From Raillietiella orientalis (lineage: Eukaryota): a stretch of DNA of 64,000 bases. Shown here piece after piece: positions 4,628 through 56,600 of the stretch. The translations under genes and the position numbers were made by a program. Position 1 is the stretch's first letter. Each line of letters begins with the position of its first letter. The stretch lies in contig JAYWIR010000004.1 of assembly GCA_036172245.1 (NCBI GenBank), positions 62,001 through 126,000 on the forward strand. Direction: 5' to 3'. The notes under the pieces are model-generated. The model saw nothing but the letters and a program-made list of their open reading frames with translations. It made no database searches and was not told the origin of the DNA.

Positions 4628-5850
4628 CTACTCGTTTTTCGGATCTGCTACGGGTGCGGCTGGGGTGTCATCCTGTGCAGGGGCTGCTTCCTGGGGTTGC
4701 GGGGGGATGGGGAGTAGAACACTGTTAGGTTCATAGACCAGGAACCGACTTGCAACTTGGTGAAAGCTCATACTGAGCTTTTTCACGGTAATGTCATCAG
4801 TGGTTACTGGCGCGACCCGCTTTGGAACAAGTGGCACGGGCCTCAGGTCTCCCTGTATAGTTTGTCCCCTTCGGGATTAAAGAGGACTTTGATCCTCTAA
4901 AGAGGACTTCCCACGGCTCGCCTATACATGTGTGGCGACATGGCCAAGGTAGACTTGGGGAACATCCCCAAGATAAATGATCAGAGTCTATCCAAGTAGG
5001 TATTTGCATCCCCATCATTGAAGGGGGTCCTGTCTACTCCTGTTATATAGCGAGCTCCCACATGATATTTTTCTCGGACGCGCATAATCTTTGTAAAGGA
5101 TGTTTCAACAGATATCATCTTCTGTATGTTGGGGCAATACTGAGCAAGGGAATGATTTAACCGCCTTCTTAACGCCTGGAAAGCGATCTCTGTTCTATGG
5201 GTTCCCGCCGGAGGGAAGTGGAACCGAATCATCGCCTCTGCAGGCAGATCCCAACACTGGTATGTAGACCCTTCGGTGGGTAGCTGCTCGACATCTTGCA
5301 CGTTGGACAATCTGGCTGTCTTGAACACCAATAGTGTGCTTTCCTATTGCATTCGTATTACTTTCCTCGGATACCCAGCACGCTCTTGTCCGTCTTTTGT
5401 TACTGCTGTATGGTAGTTGCAGACCACCAGGAGGCCTTGGCTGAAATTATCAAGGCAAGGGCATGTGCGATAATTTTCCTGTCAATTAATTTTCATGCGA
5501 GATCATTTGGTTGCTTCGTGAGTCTTTCCGGTTCCCGTGAATATGTCCAGTCTCCGTCTGGCTGCCTGGTTCACCATGGAGACGGAAAACCGATAGGCCA
5601 AACGAAATAATCGCGTAATTCCCACTGAGAGACACTTGTAGGGATGTACCCATAAACTCCGAATGGTTAAGTACCCATGTAGTGGCATTCGAAGTTTGCT
5701 GCTTTATCGTCAGACTAGGGTTGTCCCGGCAACATCTCGGACTCAGTAGAGTGACATCACTTCCAGCCGTTGTATCGACCTCCATGTTGCCGTCTAGATC
5801 CGGGACATCGATCGCGAGTTGTTAGCGGAAATCTTCTTCTAGGACGTGTT
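4628..5850 (-). pseudogene. Endogenous viral element N1: decayed negative-strand RNA virus (qinvirus-like) nucleoprotein
   Basis: Intronless minus-strand frames joined across stops and frameshifts: DVPDLDGNMEVDTTAGSDV ... ISAKASWWS/NYHT ... AGYPRKV ... IRFHFPPAGTHR ... AQYCP ... KYHVGARYITG ... YLDRL*SFILGMFPKSTLAMSPH. These blocks are collinear with N2 and N3. The family assignment is from recalled motifs. Confidence 0.75.
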
Positions 5851-8559
5851 CCTGATAACTCACAGCAATTGCTATTGAGCATCAGCTGTAAATGCCCAAT
5901 GTGCTTTGGATTTGGCAATTCTGATTGCAGCTTTCTGCGACCATTTGACAGTTTAAGTCGACTCGCGGTTTCCATCGCAATGGAAAACTTGAAATATTCC
6001 GAGACGATAACGTCTAGGATGCTTTTCGAAGATTCCCGCATTGGAAAGCCTCTTCCTTCGAAATTCTTATGGCCATCACAACGATGGGCTGCCAATGCAT
6101 TTTTTTTCATTTTCTAAGCATCTCCACGGTCGTAATGATTTCCTCGTCTGGAAAAGTGTTCGAGTGAAAGAATTGAACTATGCCTGTTCTTCTGAGATAG
6201 CGAGCGTCGTTTCCGAATGTCGCAGATTTTTCTCAGCAGGAGAAGCGATGACAAATGCAAACAAAAATGCTGACATCTTTGTTAATAAAAAGGACGGTCT
6301 GTCTGAGCTTTAGCTAGAGTGACAGGGTGGAGATGTATAGGCCAGAATGATCATTTCCAATGATTAATTTTCATTATCTAGAAGTAAAAGTGTGTTTATC
6401 TTTGTTTGTGGATGAATTTGCTCTGTTTTTTTTTTTTTTTTTTTTTTAAAAAAAAAGGAGAAGGTTGAACATGGAAAGATAGGATTGCGAAGTGTTCATG
6501 TGCTGCATTTCAGTTAAGTTCCGAGATAGGGTTACGACTTGAATGGAACTTCTTGCCATGGGTTATTTTCCAGTGTTATCATTTACACAGAGTAAACTTT
6601 GACTTGAGATCATCCGCCAGCTCACCGAGAATCACAAAGAGGGATTAAAGAGAAACGTCAGCATTCCAGTGCACAAGCATACTCGACCCCAGATAGCTGT
6701 AAACGTAACTTATTGGGGAGACGCCTGCTCTTACCACTTGATCGAAACATCTCTTGCGCTTCTTCATGGGTGTTCCCTGAGGTAGCTTTCCCCCTTCCGA
6801 CTCGCCGGCCACCTAGACAGCCGTACGCATAAAGTCCTCGGTGGTTGTGAGCTGTTGGAAGTGGCTCCATTTTATGTTGTGGTTTTGCGACTCGAACAAA
6901 GCCATGTACGTTTTCGCTCTGTTGATATGGTAACAGTGCCAGCAGTGCTCTCAAGTGGAAGCGAAAATGCACTTCGTAAACGTGTAAAAGTCGGCACCGT
7001 TGTCTAGGACACCTACTTTTGCCTCTTGATTGGTCACACAGCAGCAACTAGGACTAATGTCAAAGAGCATAGTTTGTATATTTTGTATGAACAACATATA
7101 GCAAAAAACTTCATTTTGTGGTGCTGCCTTTGCTTGGCCTTTCAATGCGTTTAGTAGTATCAGAATATTACATATTCAGTAACGTCCCAAAGAGTCACGA
7201 TATTTATAAATCAATGCATGCCTTCATTCTCTGTCAGAGATATTCGTATGGACGTTATGTTTTGTGTCAGATCTAATATAAATATATCTGATTAAGCAAT
7301 AATCACTTAATTAAATGCACTCGTGTTGTATAATTATATCAGTATAACTCATTCAAATTAATTCAAGATTTGTATGATTTTATGTGTACTAATCGGATAC
7401 TATGAGACAACAACAAAATTTTTCATTACCGCTGCTCCTTCGATTTCATTCGTGAAAAATTTAAAATTTACTGTTCTCTGATGATGACTTCTGAGTACGT
7501 GCTTGTTCCACAAAGCACGTGATTTCATTTTTCGACGAACGGAGAAAATAGCAGCATATCTTAAAGCAATTAGAAAAATGACTTTTTAAAAAGAAAAGTG
7601 TGATCTCGGCAGAGCTGGACATTCGAATCATTCACCACAAATCGAGTTCTCCCTGAATTCAACGAAAATCAACTTCCGGTGACCTTCGATCAGAAACCTC
7701 TTTGATGTTCAAAATGCTTTGATGCCTCAGTGAACACCCATCTGAAACTCGGCTGCATACGGACGTTTATTAGCAACAATAAATACACAGTCAAGTAGGA
7801 AGCAACCCATCACCCGTTACAAATGTGGGTGGGAACTCGATGTACAAAGGGATGCGACACTCGATAGACGAAAATGTACGTGATTGATGGAGAGGAGGGA
7901 TCATCATGATGAGCCGAGTCCGGTCCTATTAATTAATGGCTCTTCCCTGTCCGCCGCTTTCAGATGAAACCACTTGCGGGCACACCCCTACCATGGTAGT
8001 GTCCAGCAGATCGATGTAGGGGTTTCATTCAGCCTGACTCTATGCCGAAGACAATTCCTTCGAGTGAGATCCTTTCTCTCGCTTCCATCATACTGCGCGG
8101 AATGATCAAGTGGAAACTCAGTTTTATCGTAGGACAAATTAGGGATGCTGTGGCAGTGGAATGGCTTCCGTCTGAGACAGTTGTGACGGGTCTCGGCTGT
8201 TCCTTCCCAGTCTCTCTTCCATATGCGCTTTTTGCTAGATATCTTCCAGAATCAATCTATCCGTAACACGGAGGCCAAGAAATCATGACTAAACTAGAAA
8301 GGGGTTCTACTGTTTGCCTACTCGTGGAATCCCAAGAGAACAGCTCCCAAGCTGAAAGAGAGCAACGACTAGGTGACGAATGCGCCTCTAATGAAAAAGG
8401 AACCATTCATAGTTCGACGGGTCGATGTCACTTGCTCGGTGGTCTCAAGTCCCTGAAAAAACAAAAGACTTTTCTACTTAGCTATGACACATCCTGCATA
8501 TTATGTAGTCTTCTTTCATTCTTGCTGTCTTCTAATCAATTTTGAGAATTTCTTAACCC

Positions 8560-9415
8560 ACTCAGAGTCTTTCTCATTCTTGTAAAAGGGAAGCAAATTG
8601 ATATAATGATTCGCCACCATCTTTTGAAGAGTTATGAACATTTACACCAAATAATCTAAGAAATGATGAATTGGTGTTTCTATCAAACTCGTGTTTCTTC
8701 TTTGGACTTGCGCTTTCTCGCAGCCTGAAAGCACCTTTTTCTTCGTGGTAAAAGGATTACCTAAGTTGTCTGGTCTAATCCCCTCTTTGACTACATCTAC
8801 GTCCTTCAAACCCCAGCCAAAGTTCCTTTCTGGTTCGTTATGATCAAGATGTCCATCCTTAGAATAAGCGAGTAATCCTTCCACGTGCATCCTACACCAA
8901 TCCAGTCAGTGTCAAAGACTACTATGTAGCCTCTGTTGCAAACTGTTGTTTTCCCAGCTCCGGAAGTGCATAATATACCCTTGAGGTGGAAGTCCGGTTT
9001 TATGTTTAGACTTCTTACCTATTCTACACTTCTGCTGAGAGTTTCCCATAATCCTAACTCTCTTTACCTTTTAATGAAGGAAGCCCCTTTGCGAATTCGC
9101 TTTGAGTAATTGCATCTTTAAAAAGGTGAAAACCATAGTAGTGATCTAGAAGATTTCTCTTTTCTCACTCATCCACTTTCGGAATCATTCTAGTTTTCTC
9201 CTCTAAGATTGTAGCTCTGACTGCAAGCTGTAGCCTTTCAAGCAGCAGTTTTGCGACTGCATCTGTACATCCTCTGATGTCAGCGTCCCACCACAGCTCC
9301 TTGAATACGTCGAATGGTAGGAAATTAGGCATGTTGCTACTCTCTATCAATTCCCAAACAACGATCCAAGCTAATATGTGCTCTATTGGATCTGAAAACT
9401 GAACATCTGCTTCTA
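8560..9415 (-). pseudogene. Decayed intronless coding fragment with a Walker A-like P-loop, probably viral (possibly the C-terminal region of a polymerase/L protein)
   Basis: Reads IEADVQFSDPIEHILAWIVVWELIESS...KELWWDAD...LLDHYYGFHLFK... then GILCTSGAGKTTVCNRGYIVVFDTDWIGVGCTWKDYSLILRMDILIITNQ. The P-loop is at 8970-8944 and DTD at 8913-8905. It contains several stops and frameshifts and directly follows N2 on the same strand. Confidence 0.55.
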
Positions 9416-9482
9416 TTTACTTTTTCACTGCGCCTAGGGACCTTGGCCTTACCTCCCTTTTGTGGCTCAAGGCGCCCTAGAC

Positions 9483-10424
9483 TTAAAAGTTTCCCGGACT
9501 GCTAGTTTCCCGGGCAGGCATTGAGGTGCCGTATTGTCTCTGGGATTCCATGGCAAATAATTCAGCTTGTAATTGGGTAATATCCTGATAGACGACTTCT
9601 TCCATGTGTGCCACTGGCAGCATTGCTGCTTTTTCTCTAGATATGGAACGGCAGAAAGCATCCCAAACCGGGTCAAAATCCTCCTTTGACTCGATCACAC
9701 TTAGGGTAAAATGGGAGGATTTCACCAGTGTTGACTTAGAACATAGCTTTCGCATATAGGTGTCTAGTCTGCCTAAGAATTGATCTGCCTCCGCATCTGA
9801 AAAGTCCTCTCAGGGGCGACCTGTAAGATAACGGCCACCAATATGGAAGCTTGCTGGATGGTCCATGACACGTTTGTAATGCAATTTTAGGATGGCCAAT
9901 CCAGTCACTCTTGCGCAATATTTGGCAGAAAAGCCTTCTGAAAGCCTGGTATCGCACAACATGGAGGTGGGAGTCTGCTGGGTCTGATTTGAATCTTAGC
10001 CTCGCGTCTGGATTAAGATTCCATGAGAGATGGGGCATATTATAACTGGGCACTACTGTAGTTGGGACTATACACTCCACGCCGGCGTGGCAGCATGTGG
10101 ACATATAATGCCCAAGTTGATGGGCCAAACATATTACTGCATCATTGTCAAATCTATCAAAGCATAAGTGCACGGCTTTTAAAGGGAAGGCTGCACCCCT
10201 TTTATCTCGATCACCCATTCCTACGTGATGATTGCAATTCCAAAGACTGGCTTGGGTAGCATTCAGCAACACGAACATGTCTCGAGATAATTACTTGTAC
10301 TCGAGATAATTACAGTTATTCTTGTACGTTCCGACTCTGACCGTTGCACAAATTCGGTAACGAAGTGCCAATCACCGTCAGGTACTGGATTGCCCTCTAC
10401 ATTACGAGTCTGTATTCCACCATA
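9483..10424 (-). pseudogene. Endogenous viral element N2, central and C-terminal part (qinvirus-like nucleoprotein)
   Basis: YGGIQTRNVEGNPVPDGDWHFVTEFV ... MFVLLNATQASLWNCNHHVGMGDRD ... AHQLGHYMST ... DARLRFKSDPADSH ... AKYCAR ... DHPASFHIGGRYLTGRP*EDFSDAEADQFLGRLDTYMRKLCSKSTLVKSSHF; stops and frameshifts present. Confidence 0.8.
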
Positions 10425-11067
10425 AGTCGACACCCGGTCAAGCAGGGGCGTTTATTCAAAATAAACTTACATGCCTGTGGTAGGACGTTTCATCCTCCCA
10501 CGTTACTTAATACTACGGGAAGGACCTGGCACGAATCTGGCACGCAGACCAGCTGGATTGCCTCGGCAGCACAGGGAAAGGGAATACAAACAAAAAGAAA
10601 AATAAAAGAAAAAATACAAAAAAAGGTGATGGGTTTGGGAAGGGATCCCTGCGTGCTGGAGGGTGTCCTCTGCATCCTTGTAAGGATGCCAGCAAGTTTC
10701 TATTTCGAGACTCCCAGACTGGGCCATCTTGACGCTATCCTCATGAAGAGGATGGCAAAATAGATGGCGTCCCTGTCGTTCTGGCCTTCTTTTGCGTTGC
10801 TCCATGCAGTCACGATCCTGCGCAGGCAGCAAAGTGTTGCTACGGATGCAGTTGGCGTGAGGGCTTCGCGCAAGAAGAGGCTTTTTAAGACGTCTCTGAG
10901 GTTGCCCTCCGGGATCCGCAGGGACGCGGCAAAGCGTTCATACATGGGACGGAGGACCACACAATCCATGAACAGGTGCGAGAGGGACTCTCTCCGCACC
11001 TGCCGCAGTTCGGGTTTACACTCCTCCCGTTACACGGGAGGTCCCAGTGCAACAGCAGGGTCGAGTG
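10425..11067 (-). mobile_element. 5'-truncated non-LTR retrotransposon (L1/Tx1-type C-terminal zinc finger) inserted into N2
   Basis: NPNCGRCG(frameshift)ESLSHLFMDC zinc finger, a T-rich 3' UTR and AATAAA (tttatt at 10451-10456). Flanked by the direct repeat ccaccata at 10417-10424 and 11068-11075. Confidence 0.8.
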
Positions 11068-11310
11068 CCACCATAGGAGAACAACGATTCAAGTCCGTTG
11101 ATTAGCAATGGTTCAATTTCGTCCGGGAAAGTTTGATTCGCAGCATGGATAAATTGATATTTATAGGTTGCTTTGGGTAGTTAGCGCAGACATTCTTTGG
11201 GATTCAGGTTGCGAAACATCGCTACCTATTGTAATGCCCATTTCCACTTCTCCATCGAGGTCGGGGAGCTCGGATATGTAGCGCTCGCTACTTGGGTATG
11301 AACTTGCCAC
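11068..11310 (-). pseudogene. Endogenous viral element N2, N-terminal part
   Basis: (V/M)ASSYPSSERYISELPDLDGEVEMGITIGSDVSQPESQRMSALTT/PKATYKYQFIHAANQTFPDEIEPLLINGLESLFSYGG. Aligns with N3 (PDSQRMPVLSSPKATYKHQFMHAAN...LMINGLYVPFSY) and N1 (PDLDGNMEVDTTAGSDV). Confidence 0.8.
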
Positions 11311-11618: not shown

Positions 11619-11658
11619 CTTTTCTTACAGCCCACTACATAGTGGGCTGTAAGAAAAG
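11619..11658. repeat. Perfect 19-bp inverted repeat with a 2-nt spacer
   Basis: cttttcttacagcccacta-ca-tagtgggctgtaagaaaag; the arms are exact reverse complements. Confidence 0.95.
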
Positions 11659-53600: not shown

Positions 53601-56600
53601 GGTGATTAGAGTAATGGGTTGTTAGCATTCTTCGTGGCCAAGTAGTGGATTCTTAGCCAAACTACGTGTTGTAGCCTGGCTAAGAAGTGGTCCTCCATTC
53701 CTCCGAATGGAAAACTGACTCAGATCTGTAGATTCTGACGAATCTTACAACAGAATCCAACGTAACAATGTGCATAATTCTGGAGAGATTTTTTGGAAAA
53801 CTTCATAAGTTTCCATGTGATAGCGGGTCAAGTCTGCTTTTAGAATAGGTCATTCGCGAGTGCACCAACGAGTTTATGAAGAAAGGCAGTGCACTTCTCG
53901 ATGAAGTAGCAAACCAAGATTCCAGAGACCACAACCAACATTCTCGTTTCCTGCCTCATCCTTGGCTTGACGCATCGCACCGCATCACAAATCCCATCTA
54001 TTCACACGCCAATGCAAACACCAGAAACCATCAGGAAAAATGGAAGCCTTAGGGAAAACCTACTTTTTCGTTGCCATATTGCTCATGCCCTTTTTGCCAA
54101 ATGAGTTTACTTACATGAGTTTCCCCCACATTTTTCTCATTGGCGCACCCATGCGTATGACTAGCTGGCTGTCCCTCTTTGATTGCCGAGACAACCTCTC
54201 CGCGGTATCATCACGTATCTCATGAACCTGTCCGTCTAACATCCAAAGGAATCTCCACAACCCTGTTGTTACCCTTCCTTTCAACTCCTGAAGCTATAAA
54301 GCTTCAACTCGAGCCATCATCATCCCCTACCGTTACGACTCATCCAACGTCATCATCGCTCGCATTCCCGCTACTTTGCTCTCCAACACTCTTTCCAACC
54401 CTCACGATGCTACAACATGCTATCGCGGTCTGCATCCAAAACGACATATTAGCTGCCTCCACCCCAATAAACAACCAAGAGAATCAACCTTCCAACTATG
54501 CTTTTTTCAAACACCACAAGGCCACACGAACCGTCCTTTCATGCCCCTCACCACCCTCTGCAACCCTCGCTCTTTCTAGCCTTCCTTGTCGGCACATGGC
54601 TTTTCTTTGATAGGTGGATATCTAAACAACCGAATCCTGGTTTTACTGGATCTGGGGAGCGGTCGCGGGATCTCCTCAATGAAGTCCCGTGCTTCATTCA
54701 CTTCATGCAGAGCTCCTCGAAGATCTGGGTCGTCATCAACTTCCCACAGCGTGACGGAAGCACCAGAAAGGAAAAAATTCGTTTTCTGGAAAGATCGAGT
54801 CCCAGTCCGATGGGGATCAGGGAATCCGGGACGAAGGCTGCAAGTCATCGTGGCAGTTCTGCGCATGCCGCTCAAGGTCTTTTCGCGGACACGCCAGAGC
54901 ATGGGAAACCTTAAAGGAAATCATCCTCCTGAAACCACAAGTGGAAGAATGGTATTCTGAAGGATGGTTTCCTCAACCCGTCCCTCAGGAAACTGACTGA
55001 GTTACCTATAAATCCTGCCTTCATTTTACATAGTTGTAACAAAGTTCCAAGTTTCCCTCTTGTTTTCTGTTCAGAGTGTGACCATCCAAACTGCCATCCC
55101 TGCCTTCATTGCTCCACCCTTCATGTGCCTTTACAAGATATACATGTGTTATACATGTTAAGTAAGCACATATACACCACACGCACACATCATATCATAT
55201 AAATACATGTTACGAAAATATATGCCTGTTTTATGTAGCTATGTGCGCATAGTACATAGCGCAGCTTATACTATATGCATATAGCGCAGCTTTATCCATG
55301 GGATGTACACATTTCGTACTATCGTAAATATCACAAGTTGGGTGTCTTCTGGAATTGACTCGTCAACCTTCATTTAGAAATTTCTTTGCGAAAATGCGAC
55401 GCGAGATTGTGGATGAGGGGACCGCCAATGTATCATTAGCAAATATCCTCCGAAGATTCGAGCTTGCTTCACCCTCCTTGTGAATCCACCCGCACCTCTC
55501 ATGTCTGAGGCGAACTTTGAAAGGTCCATGGAAATGCTCTTTGCACTTGAGATTCCGGCCGCAGGGCCCGCTGCTGAAAGTGACTGCCTCATCAGCTTAA
55601 TCAAAAGCATGGAATTCAAGGTTGCTCCCGTTTGAAGATGCGCATGAGTGAATGGCAGGTGAGTTTGGATAAGATTTTCGATTGGCCTGGAAATACTTTT
55701 CACCAGGATCTCCTTCCCGTTCTTCTTCATCTGCAGAAAATCATGGTGCCGTTGTCTTTCCATCCCACCAGTGCAGTCGGTAGCTCTGATATAAGATTAG
55801 ATAAGTCGTCACATAGTGGATGTACCGGAAGGTGTATCTAGGCAAGGGGGTAATTTACTGATTTAAGTAAAGATGAATTTGTGTTGATAATTATTTGACT
55901 TTTTGTTGGGTTTAAGTATGAGGTTATTAGTAGAAAATCTACTAGATGTCCGGTGTTCATGAGATCTTAACAGCTCTTGGACTAGTTTGCCACGAGGATT
56001 GAAAGATGGGAGCGCATCCTCCTGGATATATGCAGTGCTAGGTTCATTTTGTACAAGGGATCAAGTGATGCAGATAATAGCTGTTATTGTAATTGTGCTG
56101 ATTTTTCAACACGGTAATATGCACATGGAAATCTGTGTGCATGTTACTGTGTTGAAAAATTAGGTATGCACTTTCCACTTATGCGGATATGCACGACATA
56201 CGTGGGTTCATGCACGCTTGTGTACATAGGAGTAGCAGCAACGTTCGTGCACATAGAGATAGCTCTCTCGTGATACAAAGGTGTTCACATAAATGCACAG
56301 TTCATTTATTCGTTCGTGTGCACTCTTGTAAACGGATGAATTGCATGGAAATAAAACATGCCCATCATCATCTCAACGTACCATTCTCACTGTCTGAGAT
56401 CAGTGTCATAGGTTCACTCCAGACTTCGAATGACTTGTTATCTTTAAATTCGAATTGCTTTCGCAAAACCCTGCGAGAACTGATACTTAGTAAGTTTAAA
56501 CCTTATCTCGAATGGGAATGTCGTCGTGCTTTATGAAGAAGCAACAGTTTGCTATGAACGTAACCATAGTTTTCACGGTATTCTAAAGCTCTCACGGTTC

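What the first reader, a model, noticed from the sequence alone, without database searches (positions are those of the whole stretch)
8560..9483. P-loop NTPase-like fragment joined directly downstream of nucleoprotein N2
Seen: within about 70 nt of the end of N2, an intronless decayed frame begins abruptly (IEADVQFSDP...). It contains GILCTSGAGKTT, whose TGC codon is one base from the Gly of a canonical GxxGxGKT, followed by VVFDTDWIGVGCTWKDY...LIITNQ, a kinase-like P-loop layout. The ORF track misses the motif. Inference: this may be the C-terminal region of the same virus's polymerase segment; my recollection of such a tail in qinvirus L proteins is tentative. If so, the locus records either a chimeric cDNA joining two segments or an unsegmented relative.
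Basis: partly seen in the sequence, partly recalled or inferred. Interest (0 to 1): 0.72.

Follow-up and report, generated by a model that had tools for sequence, protein, structure and literature searches.

The report
Two unrelated RNA-virus fossils fused
A dead piece of an accessory gene from a double-stranded-RNA (partiti-like) virus, carrying a predicted nucleotide-binding loop, is joined almost flush to a dead nucleoprotein gene of an unrelated negative-strand RNA virus (a qinvirus) in an animal chromosome, likely because a retrotransposon's copying enzyme jumped from one virus's RNA to the other's.

Summary
Window 9413-8516 (minus) is a decayed, 5'-truncated copy (profile positions 132-445 of 448; 5 frame changes, 2 stops) of a stand-alone ~450-aa protein family. 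Its 22 database relatives lie on 1.4-2.1 kb contigs. The only named one is a hypothetical protein of Hubei tetragnatha maxillosa virus 8, whose segment shares terminal sequences with a partiti-type RdRp segment. It is not a qinvirus L tail: no 810-2310 aa relative was found (weak test), and 0 of 5 qinvirus small segments carry it. N2 is a qinvirus nucleoprotein (fold match, E 3e-18). The 70-nt spacer is qinvirus-derived to about 9426, leaving about 12 nt unassigned, with no transposon, poly(A) or target duplication. So two viruses of different genome type are fused. A template switch during reverse transcription (0.5) and a later deletion between neighbours in a virus-fossil cluster (0.4) could not be separated. 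The family's P-loop is YYA[P/L/F]PGxGK[T/S], broken inside the motif here, not one base from a glycine. The scan had not met this family before. Side lead: a possible -1 frameshift signal at the N stop.

The parts
8516..9413 (-). Decayed, 5'-truncated copy of the P-loop accessory gene of a partiti-like dsRNA virus (profile positions 132-445 of 448, then the stop)
   Evidence: 295 matched codons, 5 frame changes (near 9080, 9060, 8980, 8960, 8830), 2 stops (near 9160, 8640), one gap of 11 positions; no second copy found in the genome
8944..8978 (-). Walker A (P-loop) region, broken by a frame change inside the motif
   Evidence: family motif table
8902..8913 (-). DTDW motif, invariant in the family; acidic motif one strand after the P-loop, a kinase-like spacing (inference)
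8451..8515 (-). Probable 3' untranslated end of the partiti-like segment; ends in CAGGG like all 4 segments of the reference virus. Similarity alone is not significant
   Evidence: 1254 of 5000 shuffles score as well
9414..9425 (-). Junction: about 12 nt that cannot be assigned to either virus; no transposon sequence, poly(A) or target-site duplication seen
9426..9482 (-). Qinvirus-derived sequence behind the N stop, cut off before the AATAAA-bearing 3' end seen in other copies; folds into a hairpin (9482-9432)
   Evidence: homologous to other N copies L089, L020, L016 (0 of 300 shuffles reach the scores); hairpin -27.6 kcal/mol, z -2.7
9489..9495 (-). In-phase slippery heptamer G_GGA_AAC just before the N stop, 6-8 nt ahead of the hairpin: candidate -1 frameshift signal of the source qinvirus (untested)
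9483..11286 (-). Decayed qinvirus nucleoprotein gene N2, interrupted by an insertion
   Evidence: family identity
10430..11070 (-). Insertion in N2; looks like the 3' end of a non-LTR retrotransposon of the type that flanks other N copies (label recalled from the CxxC...H pattern, no family hit)
   Evidence: 33-37% identical to frames beside N copies L010, L015, L019
13371..14164 (-). Neighbouring qinvirus N copy (N1), same orientation
4906..5821 (-). Third qinvirus N copy (N3), same orientation, 2.7 kb past the fragment

Best explanation
The element is a composite viral fossil in which the back 70% of an accessory gene from a partiti-like double-stranded-RNA virus is joined almost flush to a qinvirus nucleoprotein gene, likely made in one step when a retrotransposon reverse transcriptase switched templates between the two viruses' RNAs in a co-infected germ-line cell. 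Shown: the identity of both halves, their shared message sense, the truncation of both at the join, and their decay. Inferred: the enzyme began at the 3' end of the partiti-like RNA, copied about 960 nt, jumped at about codon 130 onto the qinvirus N message about 60 nt behind its stop codon, copied N to its start, and the cDNA entered a cluster of co-oriented virus fossils. A retrotransposon end later landed in N2. The locus can make no intact protein; if it does anything, it would be as a template for antiviral small RNAs (untested). The intact viral protein is predicted to be a small P-loop kinase-like NTP-binding enzyme with a helical, probably metal-binding (HxxH, CxxC) front part.
For: Identity of the tail: 11 hits in 1.84 billion proteins, best E 3e-13, all 147-462 aa; 22 family members on contigs of 1435-2149 nt, one named Hubei tetragnatha maxillosa virus 8 hypothetical protein. 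Its segment L024 shares a ~58-nt 5' leader with 3 sibling segments and a 3' end with 2 of them; sibling L032 is PF00680 RdRP_1, E 7e-30. The virus is placed with partiti-like viruses of 4-6 segments (10.1101/2023.07.29.551099, passages). A second multi-segment virus record holds a relative (L094). The host genome holds capsid-like fossils (15 matches at 9 places) and an RdRp fossil of the same virus group. N identity: 7 fold matches at E<=0.001, 4 named qin(virus)-like, the best Wenzhou and Sanxia qinvirus-like virus 1. Join: qinvirus homology runs to ~9426-9437 and partiti homology starts at 9413; the missing N 3' remainder is not behind the fragment (3 of 3 tests at chance level), and the longest direct repeat around the fragment is 7 nt, as in shuffles. 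N copies L009 and L011 sit between two parts of a reverse-transcriptase frame, as template switching between retroelement and viral RNA would give. Template switching is proposed for mosquito EVEs (10.1101/127498 and PMC8048955, passages).
Against: No microhomology can be tested because neither parent virus is known at nucleotide level. Shared orientation does not discriminate: all virus fossils seen in this cluster point the same way. At two other places qinvirus N and partiti-like fossils lie 1.7 and 4.4 kb apart unjoined, which is the substrate a deletion would fuse. The tail has more breaks than the main part of N2 (7 in 295 codons against 3 in 275), although the difference is not significant (p 0.35). 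The CAGGG end is not significant by itself. The kinase-like class rests on motifs and sub-threshold Atlas leads only (best score 0.89); Pfam, PHROGs and PDB sequence searches gave no consistent family.
Confidence: 0.5

Rival explanations
1. The two pieces were captured separately in a cluster that collects virus fragments and were brought together later, by a deletion that removed the N 3' end, the intervening DNA and the 5' third of the partiti-like gene, or by insertion of the partiti-like cDNA with loss of target DNA.
For: Three co-oriented N copies lie within 9.3 kb, with CRESS Rep pieces 10-20 kb beyond the window start. 3 of 11 partiti-like places found lie within 5 kb of an N copy (coordinates), two of them unjoined. 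Both halves are truncated at the join, as one deletion would leave them. Mosquito piRNA clusters hold EVEs of different families side by side.
Against: The deletion must have both ends inside viral sequence and leave no host or transposon DNA. Decay levels of the halves are not distinguishable. No target-site duplication and no displaced N remainder, which speaks against the simple insertion variant.
Confidence: 0.4
2. The join existed in a virus: a qinvirus that had gained the P-loop gene on its small segment or as a further segment, or a satellite-like segment shared by both viruses.
For: Both halves are in message sense. One qinvirus small segment carries a second ORF behind N (PMC10496375, passages). 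Accessory segments of partiti-like viruses are proposed to move by reassortment (PMC10011393, passages).
Against: 0 of 5 qinvirus small segments score with the P-loop profile. L024 has partiti-type shared termini, not the complementary ends of qinvirus segments such as L026. The P-loop gene is cut at codon ~130 and follows a stop, so it forms no sensible viral gene. None of the other N loci examined (17 loci plus 2 window pieces) is followed by it.
Confidence: 0.05
3. One reading: the fragment is the C-terminal tail of the qinvirus L polymerase, recording a two-segment chimera or an unsegmented relative.
For: Position directly behind a qinvirus N. No qinvirus L sequence could be fetched for a direct comparison (searches returned only the S segments).
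Against: Every relative found is at most 481 aa, and full-length members start ~130 residues upstream of the fragment and end where it ends. No relative of 810-2310 aa among 4027 candidates, which the tool calls weak evidence. The ICTV profile lists only RdRP and PRNTase for L (PMC10721934, whole text). No PF00946 match in the genome.
Confidence: 0.02

Closest known systems
Hubei tetragnatha maxillosa virus 8, 1611-nt segment, 451-aa hypothetical protein (partiti-like dsRNA virus; IMG/VR record 2738541554)
   Same: Collinear over residues ~141-442; 27%, 58% and 34% identity in the three pieces; same P-loop, DTDW, ITNQ and C-terminal motifs; 3' end in CAGGG.
   Different: The window copy lacks the first ~130 residues and the 5' leader, is broken, and comes from another species of the group (unnamed relatives P0023, P0024 score slightly higher). 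The source annotates no domain.
Qinvirus (Qinviridae, Yingvirus) small-segment nucleoprotein, e.g. Wenzhou and Sanxia qinvirus-like virus 1
   Same: Fold of a genome copy of the N family matches at TM 0.71-0.74; five qinvirus-type small segments match the profile at E 2e-107 to 5e-54.
   Different: Here it is a decayed chromosomal copy with a retroelement insertion, cut ~60 nt behind its stop and joined to another virus's gene; none of the five viral segments has such a neighbour.
Composite non-retroviral EVEs and multi-family EVE clusters of Aedes mosquitoes (PMC8048955; 10.1101/127498)
   Same: Non-contiguous viral pieces joined in one insertion; fossils of several virus families co-oriented among retroelement fragments.
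   Different: In the passages read, composite EVEs join parts of one virus. This one joins a negative-strand and a double-stranded RNA virus. The retroelement pieces seen beside the N copies here look non-LTR, and piRNA output is untested.
Small P-loop kinase-like proteins (Pfam AAA_28, AAA_18, AAA_33, shikimate/APS kinase clusters)
   Same: P-loop followed after about ten residues by a hydrophobic strand and an acidic motif; the named Atlas rows with a family are of this kind (scores 0.82-0.88, leads only).
   Different: No sequence match to these families above noise; no structure model was obtained; an extra ~290-residue front part with invariant HxxH and CxxC.

Membership tests
Partiti-like dsRNA virus accessory segment (Hubei tetragnatha maxillosa virus 8 group) | Protein homology to a gene on a monocistronic ~1.5 kb segment | tested here: met
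   22 relatives on 1435-2149 nt contigs; collinear over profile 132-445
Partiti-like dsRNA virus accessory segment (Hubei tetragnatha maxillosa virus 8 group) | The reference segment shares terminal sequences with a partiti-type RdRp segment | tested here: met
   four segments, common 5' leader, L032 = PF00680 E 7e-30. Shown for 1 virus; for L094 only a similar leader motif was seen by eye
Partiti-like dsRNA virus accessory segment (Hubei tetragnatha maxillosa virus 8 group) | The window copy keeps the segment's conserved terminus | tested here: inconclusive
   ends in CAGGG 65 nt behind the stop, but 1254 of 5000 shuffles score as well; 5' end lost
Partiti-like dsRNA virus accessory segment (Hubei tetragnatha maxillosa virus 8 group) | Unnamed relatives co-occur with partiti RdRp in their samples | not testable with these tools
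   cluster look-up unavailable; no sample links held
Qinviridae L protein | Part of a 1600-2000 aa protein with RdRP and PRNTase domains | tested here: not met
   no 810-2310 aa relative (weak on its own); all relatives stand-alone, <=481 aa
Qinviridae S segment nucleoprotein (for N2) | Sequence and fold of qinvirus N | tested here: met
   (model of genome copy L008 with 12 relatives); N2 matches the same profile at iE 1e-30
P-loop NTPase / kinase | Walker A GxxxxGK[T/S]-type loop with invariant Lys | tested here: met
   G297 and K298 invariant in 26 of 26; PGxGK[T/S] in 25 of 26. No Gly four residues ahead of GK-1, so the loop is atypical. Broken in the window copy
P-loop NTPase / kinase | Kinase-type three-layer fold | tested here: inconclusive
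   no own model obtained; Atlas model pLDDT 0.45, TM <0.4; feature leads <0.9
P-loop NTPase / kinase | NTP binding or hydrolysis | not testable with these tools
   needs a biochemical assay of an intact viral protein
Non-retroviral endogenous viral element | Viral gene inside a long host contig, decayed, among host genes and retroelements | tested here: met
   6.76 Mb contig; trypsin, ZIP and nuclear-receptor exons in the window; stops and frame changes
piRNA cluster | Production of strand-biased small RNAs | not testable with these tools
   no run listed
-1 programmed ribosomal frameshift signal | X_XXY_YYZ in phase, 5-9 nt spacer, 3' stem-loop (features recalled) | tested here: inconclusive
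   all three present at N2; heptamer within 10 codons of the stop in 2 of 14 N sequences and 1 of 5 viral segments; no stable stem behind L026 (z 0.1)

The most novel reading that the evidence does not exclude
The locus is a direct fossil of a reverse transcriptase jumping between the RNAs of a negative-strand and a double-stranded RNA virus in one germ-line cell. It also exposes two unnoticed pieces of virus biology: a widespread P-loop, metal-binding enzyme on an accessory segment of arthropod partiti-like viruses, and a -1 frameshift that gives some qinvirus nucleoproteins a basic R-R-S tail.
Probability: 0.35. Interest if true: 0.68.

Novelty: new variant of a known kind. Interest (0 to 1): 0.47.

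Why it matters
Endogenous RNA-virus fragments and composite fragments are known. A flush join between two viruses of different genome type would show that host retroelement enzymes can stitch unrelated viral RNAs together, a route by which genes could move between virus groups and by which one locus could store small-RNA memory of two infections. The work also gives a first functional handle (P-loop, HxxH, CxxC) on a family of about 30 hypothetical proteins on extra segments of partiti-like viruses. In a Drosophila partitivirus an extra segment carries the male-killing gene (PMC10011393), so what these segments encode is an open question. The fragment itself is dead and codes for nothing.

Tried and rejected
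Pfam on the single pieces and on N: nothing. Pfam and PHROGs on all 26 family members: only scattered single-member hits. PDB by sequence: best E 0.31 and 0.66. ESM Atlas: leads under 0.9, structure rows under TM 0.4. No structure model of the P-loop family was obtained, so its fold class stays open. Cluster membership and accession look-ups could not be made, so names rest. Qinvirus L segments could not be reached through shared termini. PF00946 and PF00680 searches of the genome were blank, yet a single-protein search did find an RdRp fossil, so those blanks are insensitive. Sequencing runs: none was listed. The weak extension of the L089 alignment past the junction was rejected: L089 has no P-loop profile match. 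Target-site duplication and displaced N remainder: not found. 3' UTR likeness to the reference virus: not significant. The flank 8450-7500 is essentially single-copy and unidentified. A two-sequence consensus fold of the hairpin showed no compensatory change. Literature searches listed no paper, among those I opened, that describes a P-loop in a partiti-like segment, a qinvirus-partiti chimera or a frameshift in qinvirus N; one search matched 493 papers of which 25 were listed and 2 opened, the two papers were not opened, Shi et al. 2016 was not read, and no supplements were read, where such annotation may stand.

Full report
Observation. On the minus strand the N2 frame stops at 9485-9483, a frame reading IEADVQFSDP begins at 9416, a second frame holds GILCTSGAGKTT...FDTDW...ITNQ (9018-8806), and a third runs to a stop at 8518-8516. 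DNA and protein searches of the 210 Mb genome found this stretch only here. The host is an animal-type eukaryote: trypsin, ZIP and nuclear-receptor exons lie in the window (4 of 84 frames scanned hit Pfam) on a 6.76 Mb contig.

What the tail is. The first 140 codons, stops read as X, found 11 proteins among 1.84 billion, best E 3e-13. All but one short piece continue into the same P-loop, DTDW and ITNQ motifs as the window's other frames. A profile search gave 22 relatives of 185-464 aa on contigs of 1435-2149 nt; one is named, a hypothetical protein of Hubei tetragnatha maxillosa virus 8. Its 1611-nt segment is in IMG/VR. Searches with its two ends returned three more segments of the same record. 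All four share a ~58-nt leader and end in ACAGGG; one is an RdRP_1 polymerase, E 7e-30, and another looks like a capsid gene (my reading, no family hit tested). A preprint places this virus among partiti-like viruses with 4-6 segments (10.1101/2023.07.29.551099, passages); an ant EVE paper lists it in the Partiti-Picobirna capsid tree (PMC6540820, passages). A second multi-segment record (L094) and a 1610-nt metagenome contig (L042) also carry the gene. The host genome holds 15 matches at 9 places to the capsid-like protein and an RdRp fossil, so this virus group infected the lineage.

The window copy covers profile positions 132-445 of 448 with 5 frame changes, 2 stops and an 11-position gap; 23 of 23 full-length relatives tested hit it. 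The family loop is YYA[P/L/F]PGxGK[T/S] or a close variant in 25 of 26 members, with invariant HxxH, CxxC, GK, DTDW and TNQ. The kinase-like class is an inference from motif spacing plus Atlas leads below threshold (AAA_28, AAA_18, AAA_33, shikimate kinase). Pfam, PHROGs and PDB sequence searches gave nothing consistent and no structure model was obtained.

Not an L tail. A search of 810-2310 aa proteins found none among 4027 candidates, which is weak alone. The stronger point is anatomy: full-length relatives begin ~130 residues upstream and end where the fragment ends. The ICTV profile names only RdRP and PRNTase in L and a two-segment genome (PMC10721934, whole text). 0 of 5 qinvirus-type small segments score with the P-loop profile. 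I could not fetch a qinvirus L for a direct test.

What N2 is. The N-like family has 46 matches in the genome and 10 database relatives, 9 on 1.3-2.9 kb contigs. A model of one genome copy (pLDDT 78) matches 7 viral structures at E<=0.001, led by Wenzhou and Sanxia qinvirus-like virus 1; PDB gives only weak mononegavirus nucleoproteins. Five viral segments of 1.6-1.8 kb match the profile; three have ORF lengths equal to named qinvirus entries (434, 451, 364 aa).

The junction. The 57 nt behind the N stop align with other N copies: L020 to 9426, L089 strongly to about 9437, L016 at protein level to 9454 (0 of 300 shuffles). Partiti homology starts at 9413. About 12 nt are unassigned. Several other N copies keep a longer AT-rich 3' end, some with AATAAA; N2 has lost it. 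There is no poly(A) or retroelement DNA at the join, the lost N remainder is not behind the fragment (3 of 3 comparisons at chance), and direct repeats reach only 7 nt, as in shuffles. Behind the fragment's stop come 65 nt ending in CAGGG, like the reference segments, but this is not significant alone. Base composition also shifts as expected: the fragment is A-rich and C-poor like L024.

How it arose. Shown: two unrelated viruses, same message sense, both cut at the join. Inferred: either one cDNA made by a template switch, or two neighbours fused by a deletion. For the switch: a clean join, a kept 3' end where copying would start, and N copies L009 and L011 lying inside a reverse-transcriptase frame. 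Mosquito work proposes copy-choice recombination and reports composite EVEs of one virus (PMC8048955 and 10.1101/127498, passages). For the deletion: this is a cluster, with three co-oriented N copies and CRESS Rep pieces beyond the window start; 3 of 11 partiti-like places lie within 5 kb of an N copy, two of them unjoined at 1.7 and 4.4 kb. Break counts, 7 in 295 codons against 3 in 275, do not decide (p 0.35). I give 0.5 to the switch, 0.4 to later fusion, 0.05 to a join made in a virus, 0.02 to an L tail.

Side lead. The spacer folds into a hairpin (z -2.7, 2 of 200 shuffles) 6-8 nt behind an in-phase G_GGA_AAC. The viral segment L026 has C_CCA_AAC directly before its N stop. The -1 frame behind the stop holds an R-R-S or similar basic motif in N2, N3, L020, L026, L025 and L014, and in the +1 frame in L021; it is absent in L089, both L016 copies, L008, L010, L012, L018 and L091-L093. 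A canonical heptamer near the stop was seen in only 2 of 14 sequences, L026 has no stable stem, and no chance control was run for the motif. It is a lead, not a result.

Novelty. RNA-virus fossils, qinvirus and partiti fossils and composite fossils are all in print (PMC6955108, PMC6540820, passages; PMC8048955). In the papers opened after nine searches I met no join between two virus groups of different genome type and no P-loop annotation for this segment family; the library lacks most subscription papers and no supplements were read. Other papers seen: PMC10496375, PMC11842880, PMC6893623, PMC13685103, PMC10011393, PMC12389512, PMC9195127, PMC6932829 (passages) and PMC11783172 (first part of two). 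The scan's notes hold no look-alike of the protein and no partiti finding in this genome; they do note qinvirus N fossils and another two-virus N fusion in this genome, which I did not test. Verdict: real, a new variant of a known kind, interest 0.47.

Noticed in passing
window 9495-9426 (-); L026 1204-1345; L025, L020, L014, L021, window ~4640-4560 (N3 tail): Slippery heptamer before the N stop, hairpin behind it, and a -1 frame with an R-R-S/basic motif in several qinvirus N sequences: possible frameshift-extended nucleoprotein; the motif recalls chromatin-tethering arginine anchors (recalled, untested).
   Followed up: partly
L009 and L011 (G000 C72, C33): Near-intact qinvirus N frames (353 and 365 aa) sit between two parts of a non-LTR reverse-transcriptase frame, a direct-looking retroelement-virus template switch, present in two copies.
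   Followed up: no
L010, L012, L015, L017, L018: N copies end in an AT-rich 3' stretch and then converge on one shared ~19-nt sequence, suggesting a common retroelement partner or duplication.
   Followed up: no
L105 1919-2351 and 4075-6482; L106 8560-8238 and 3848-1380: Two more places where partiti-like fossils (RdRp, capsid-like) lie co-oriented within 1.7-4.4 kb of qinvirus N fossils.
   Followed up: partly
G000 C65, C119, C42, C4:3.12 Mb, C36, C109, C81, C14, C48: Partiti-like capsid fossils at 9 places; the C4 copy has a 398-codon open frame without stops.
   Followed up: no
window 4906-5821 (-): A third qinvirus N copy (N3), not mentioned in the finding.
   Followed up: partly
window 7970-8545 (+): A single-copy stretch with a ~190-codon frame broken by two stops, right behind the fragment on the opposite strand; unidentified.
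   Followed up: partly
L095-L096 (10-20 kb before the window start): At least four CRESS-type Rep pieces, same orientation as the N copies.
   Followed up: partly
L016 1950-2900: Internal tandem duplications of the N C-terminal region within one locus.
   Followed up: no
window 11619-11658 and 56098-56163: Short near-perfect palindromes (40 and 66 nt).
   Followed up: no
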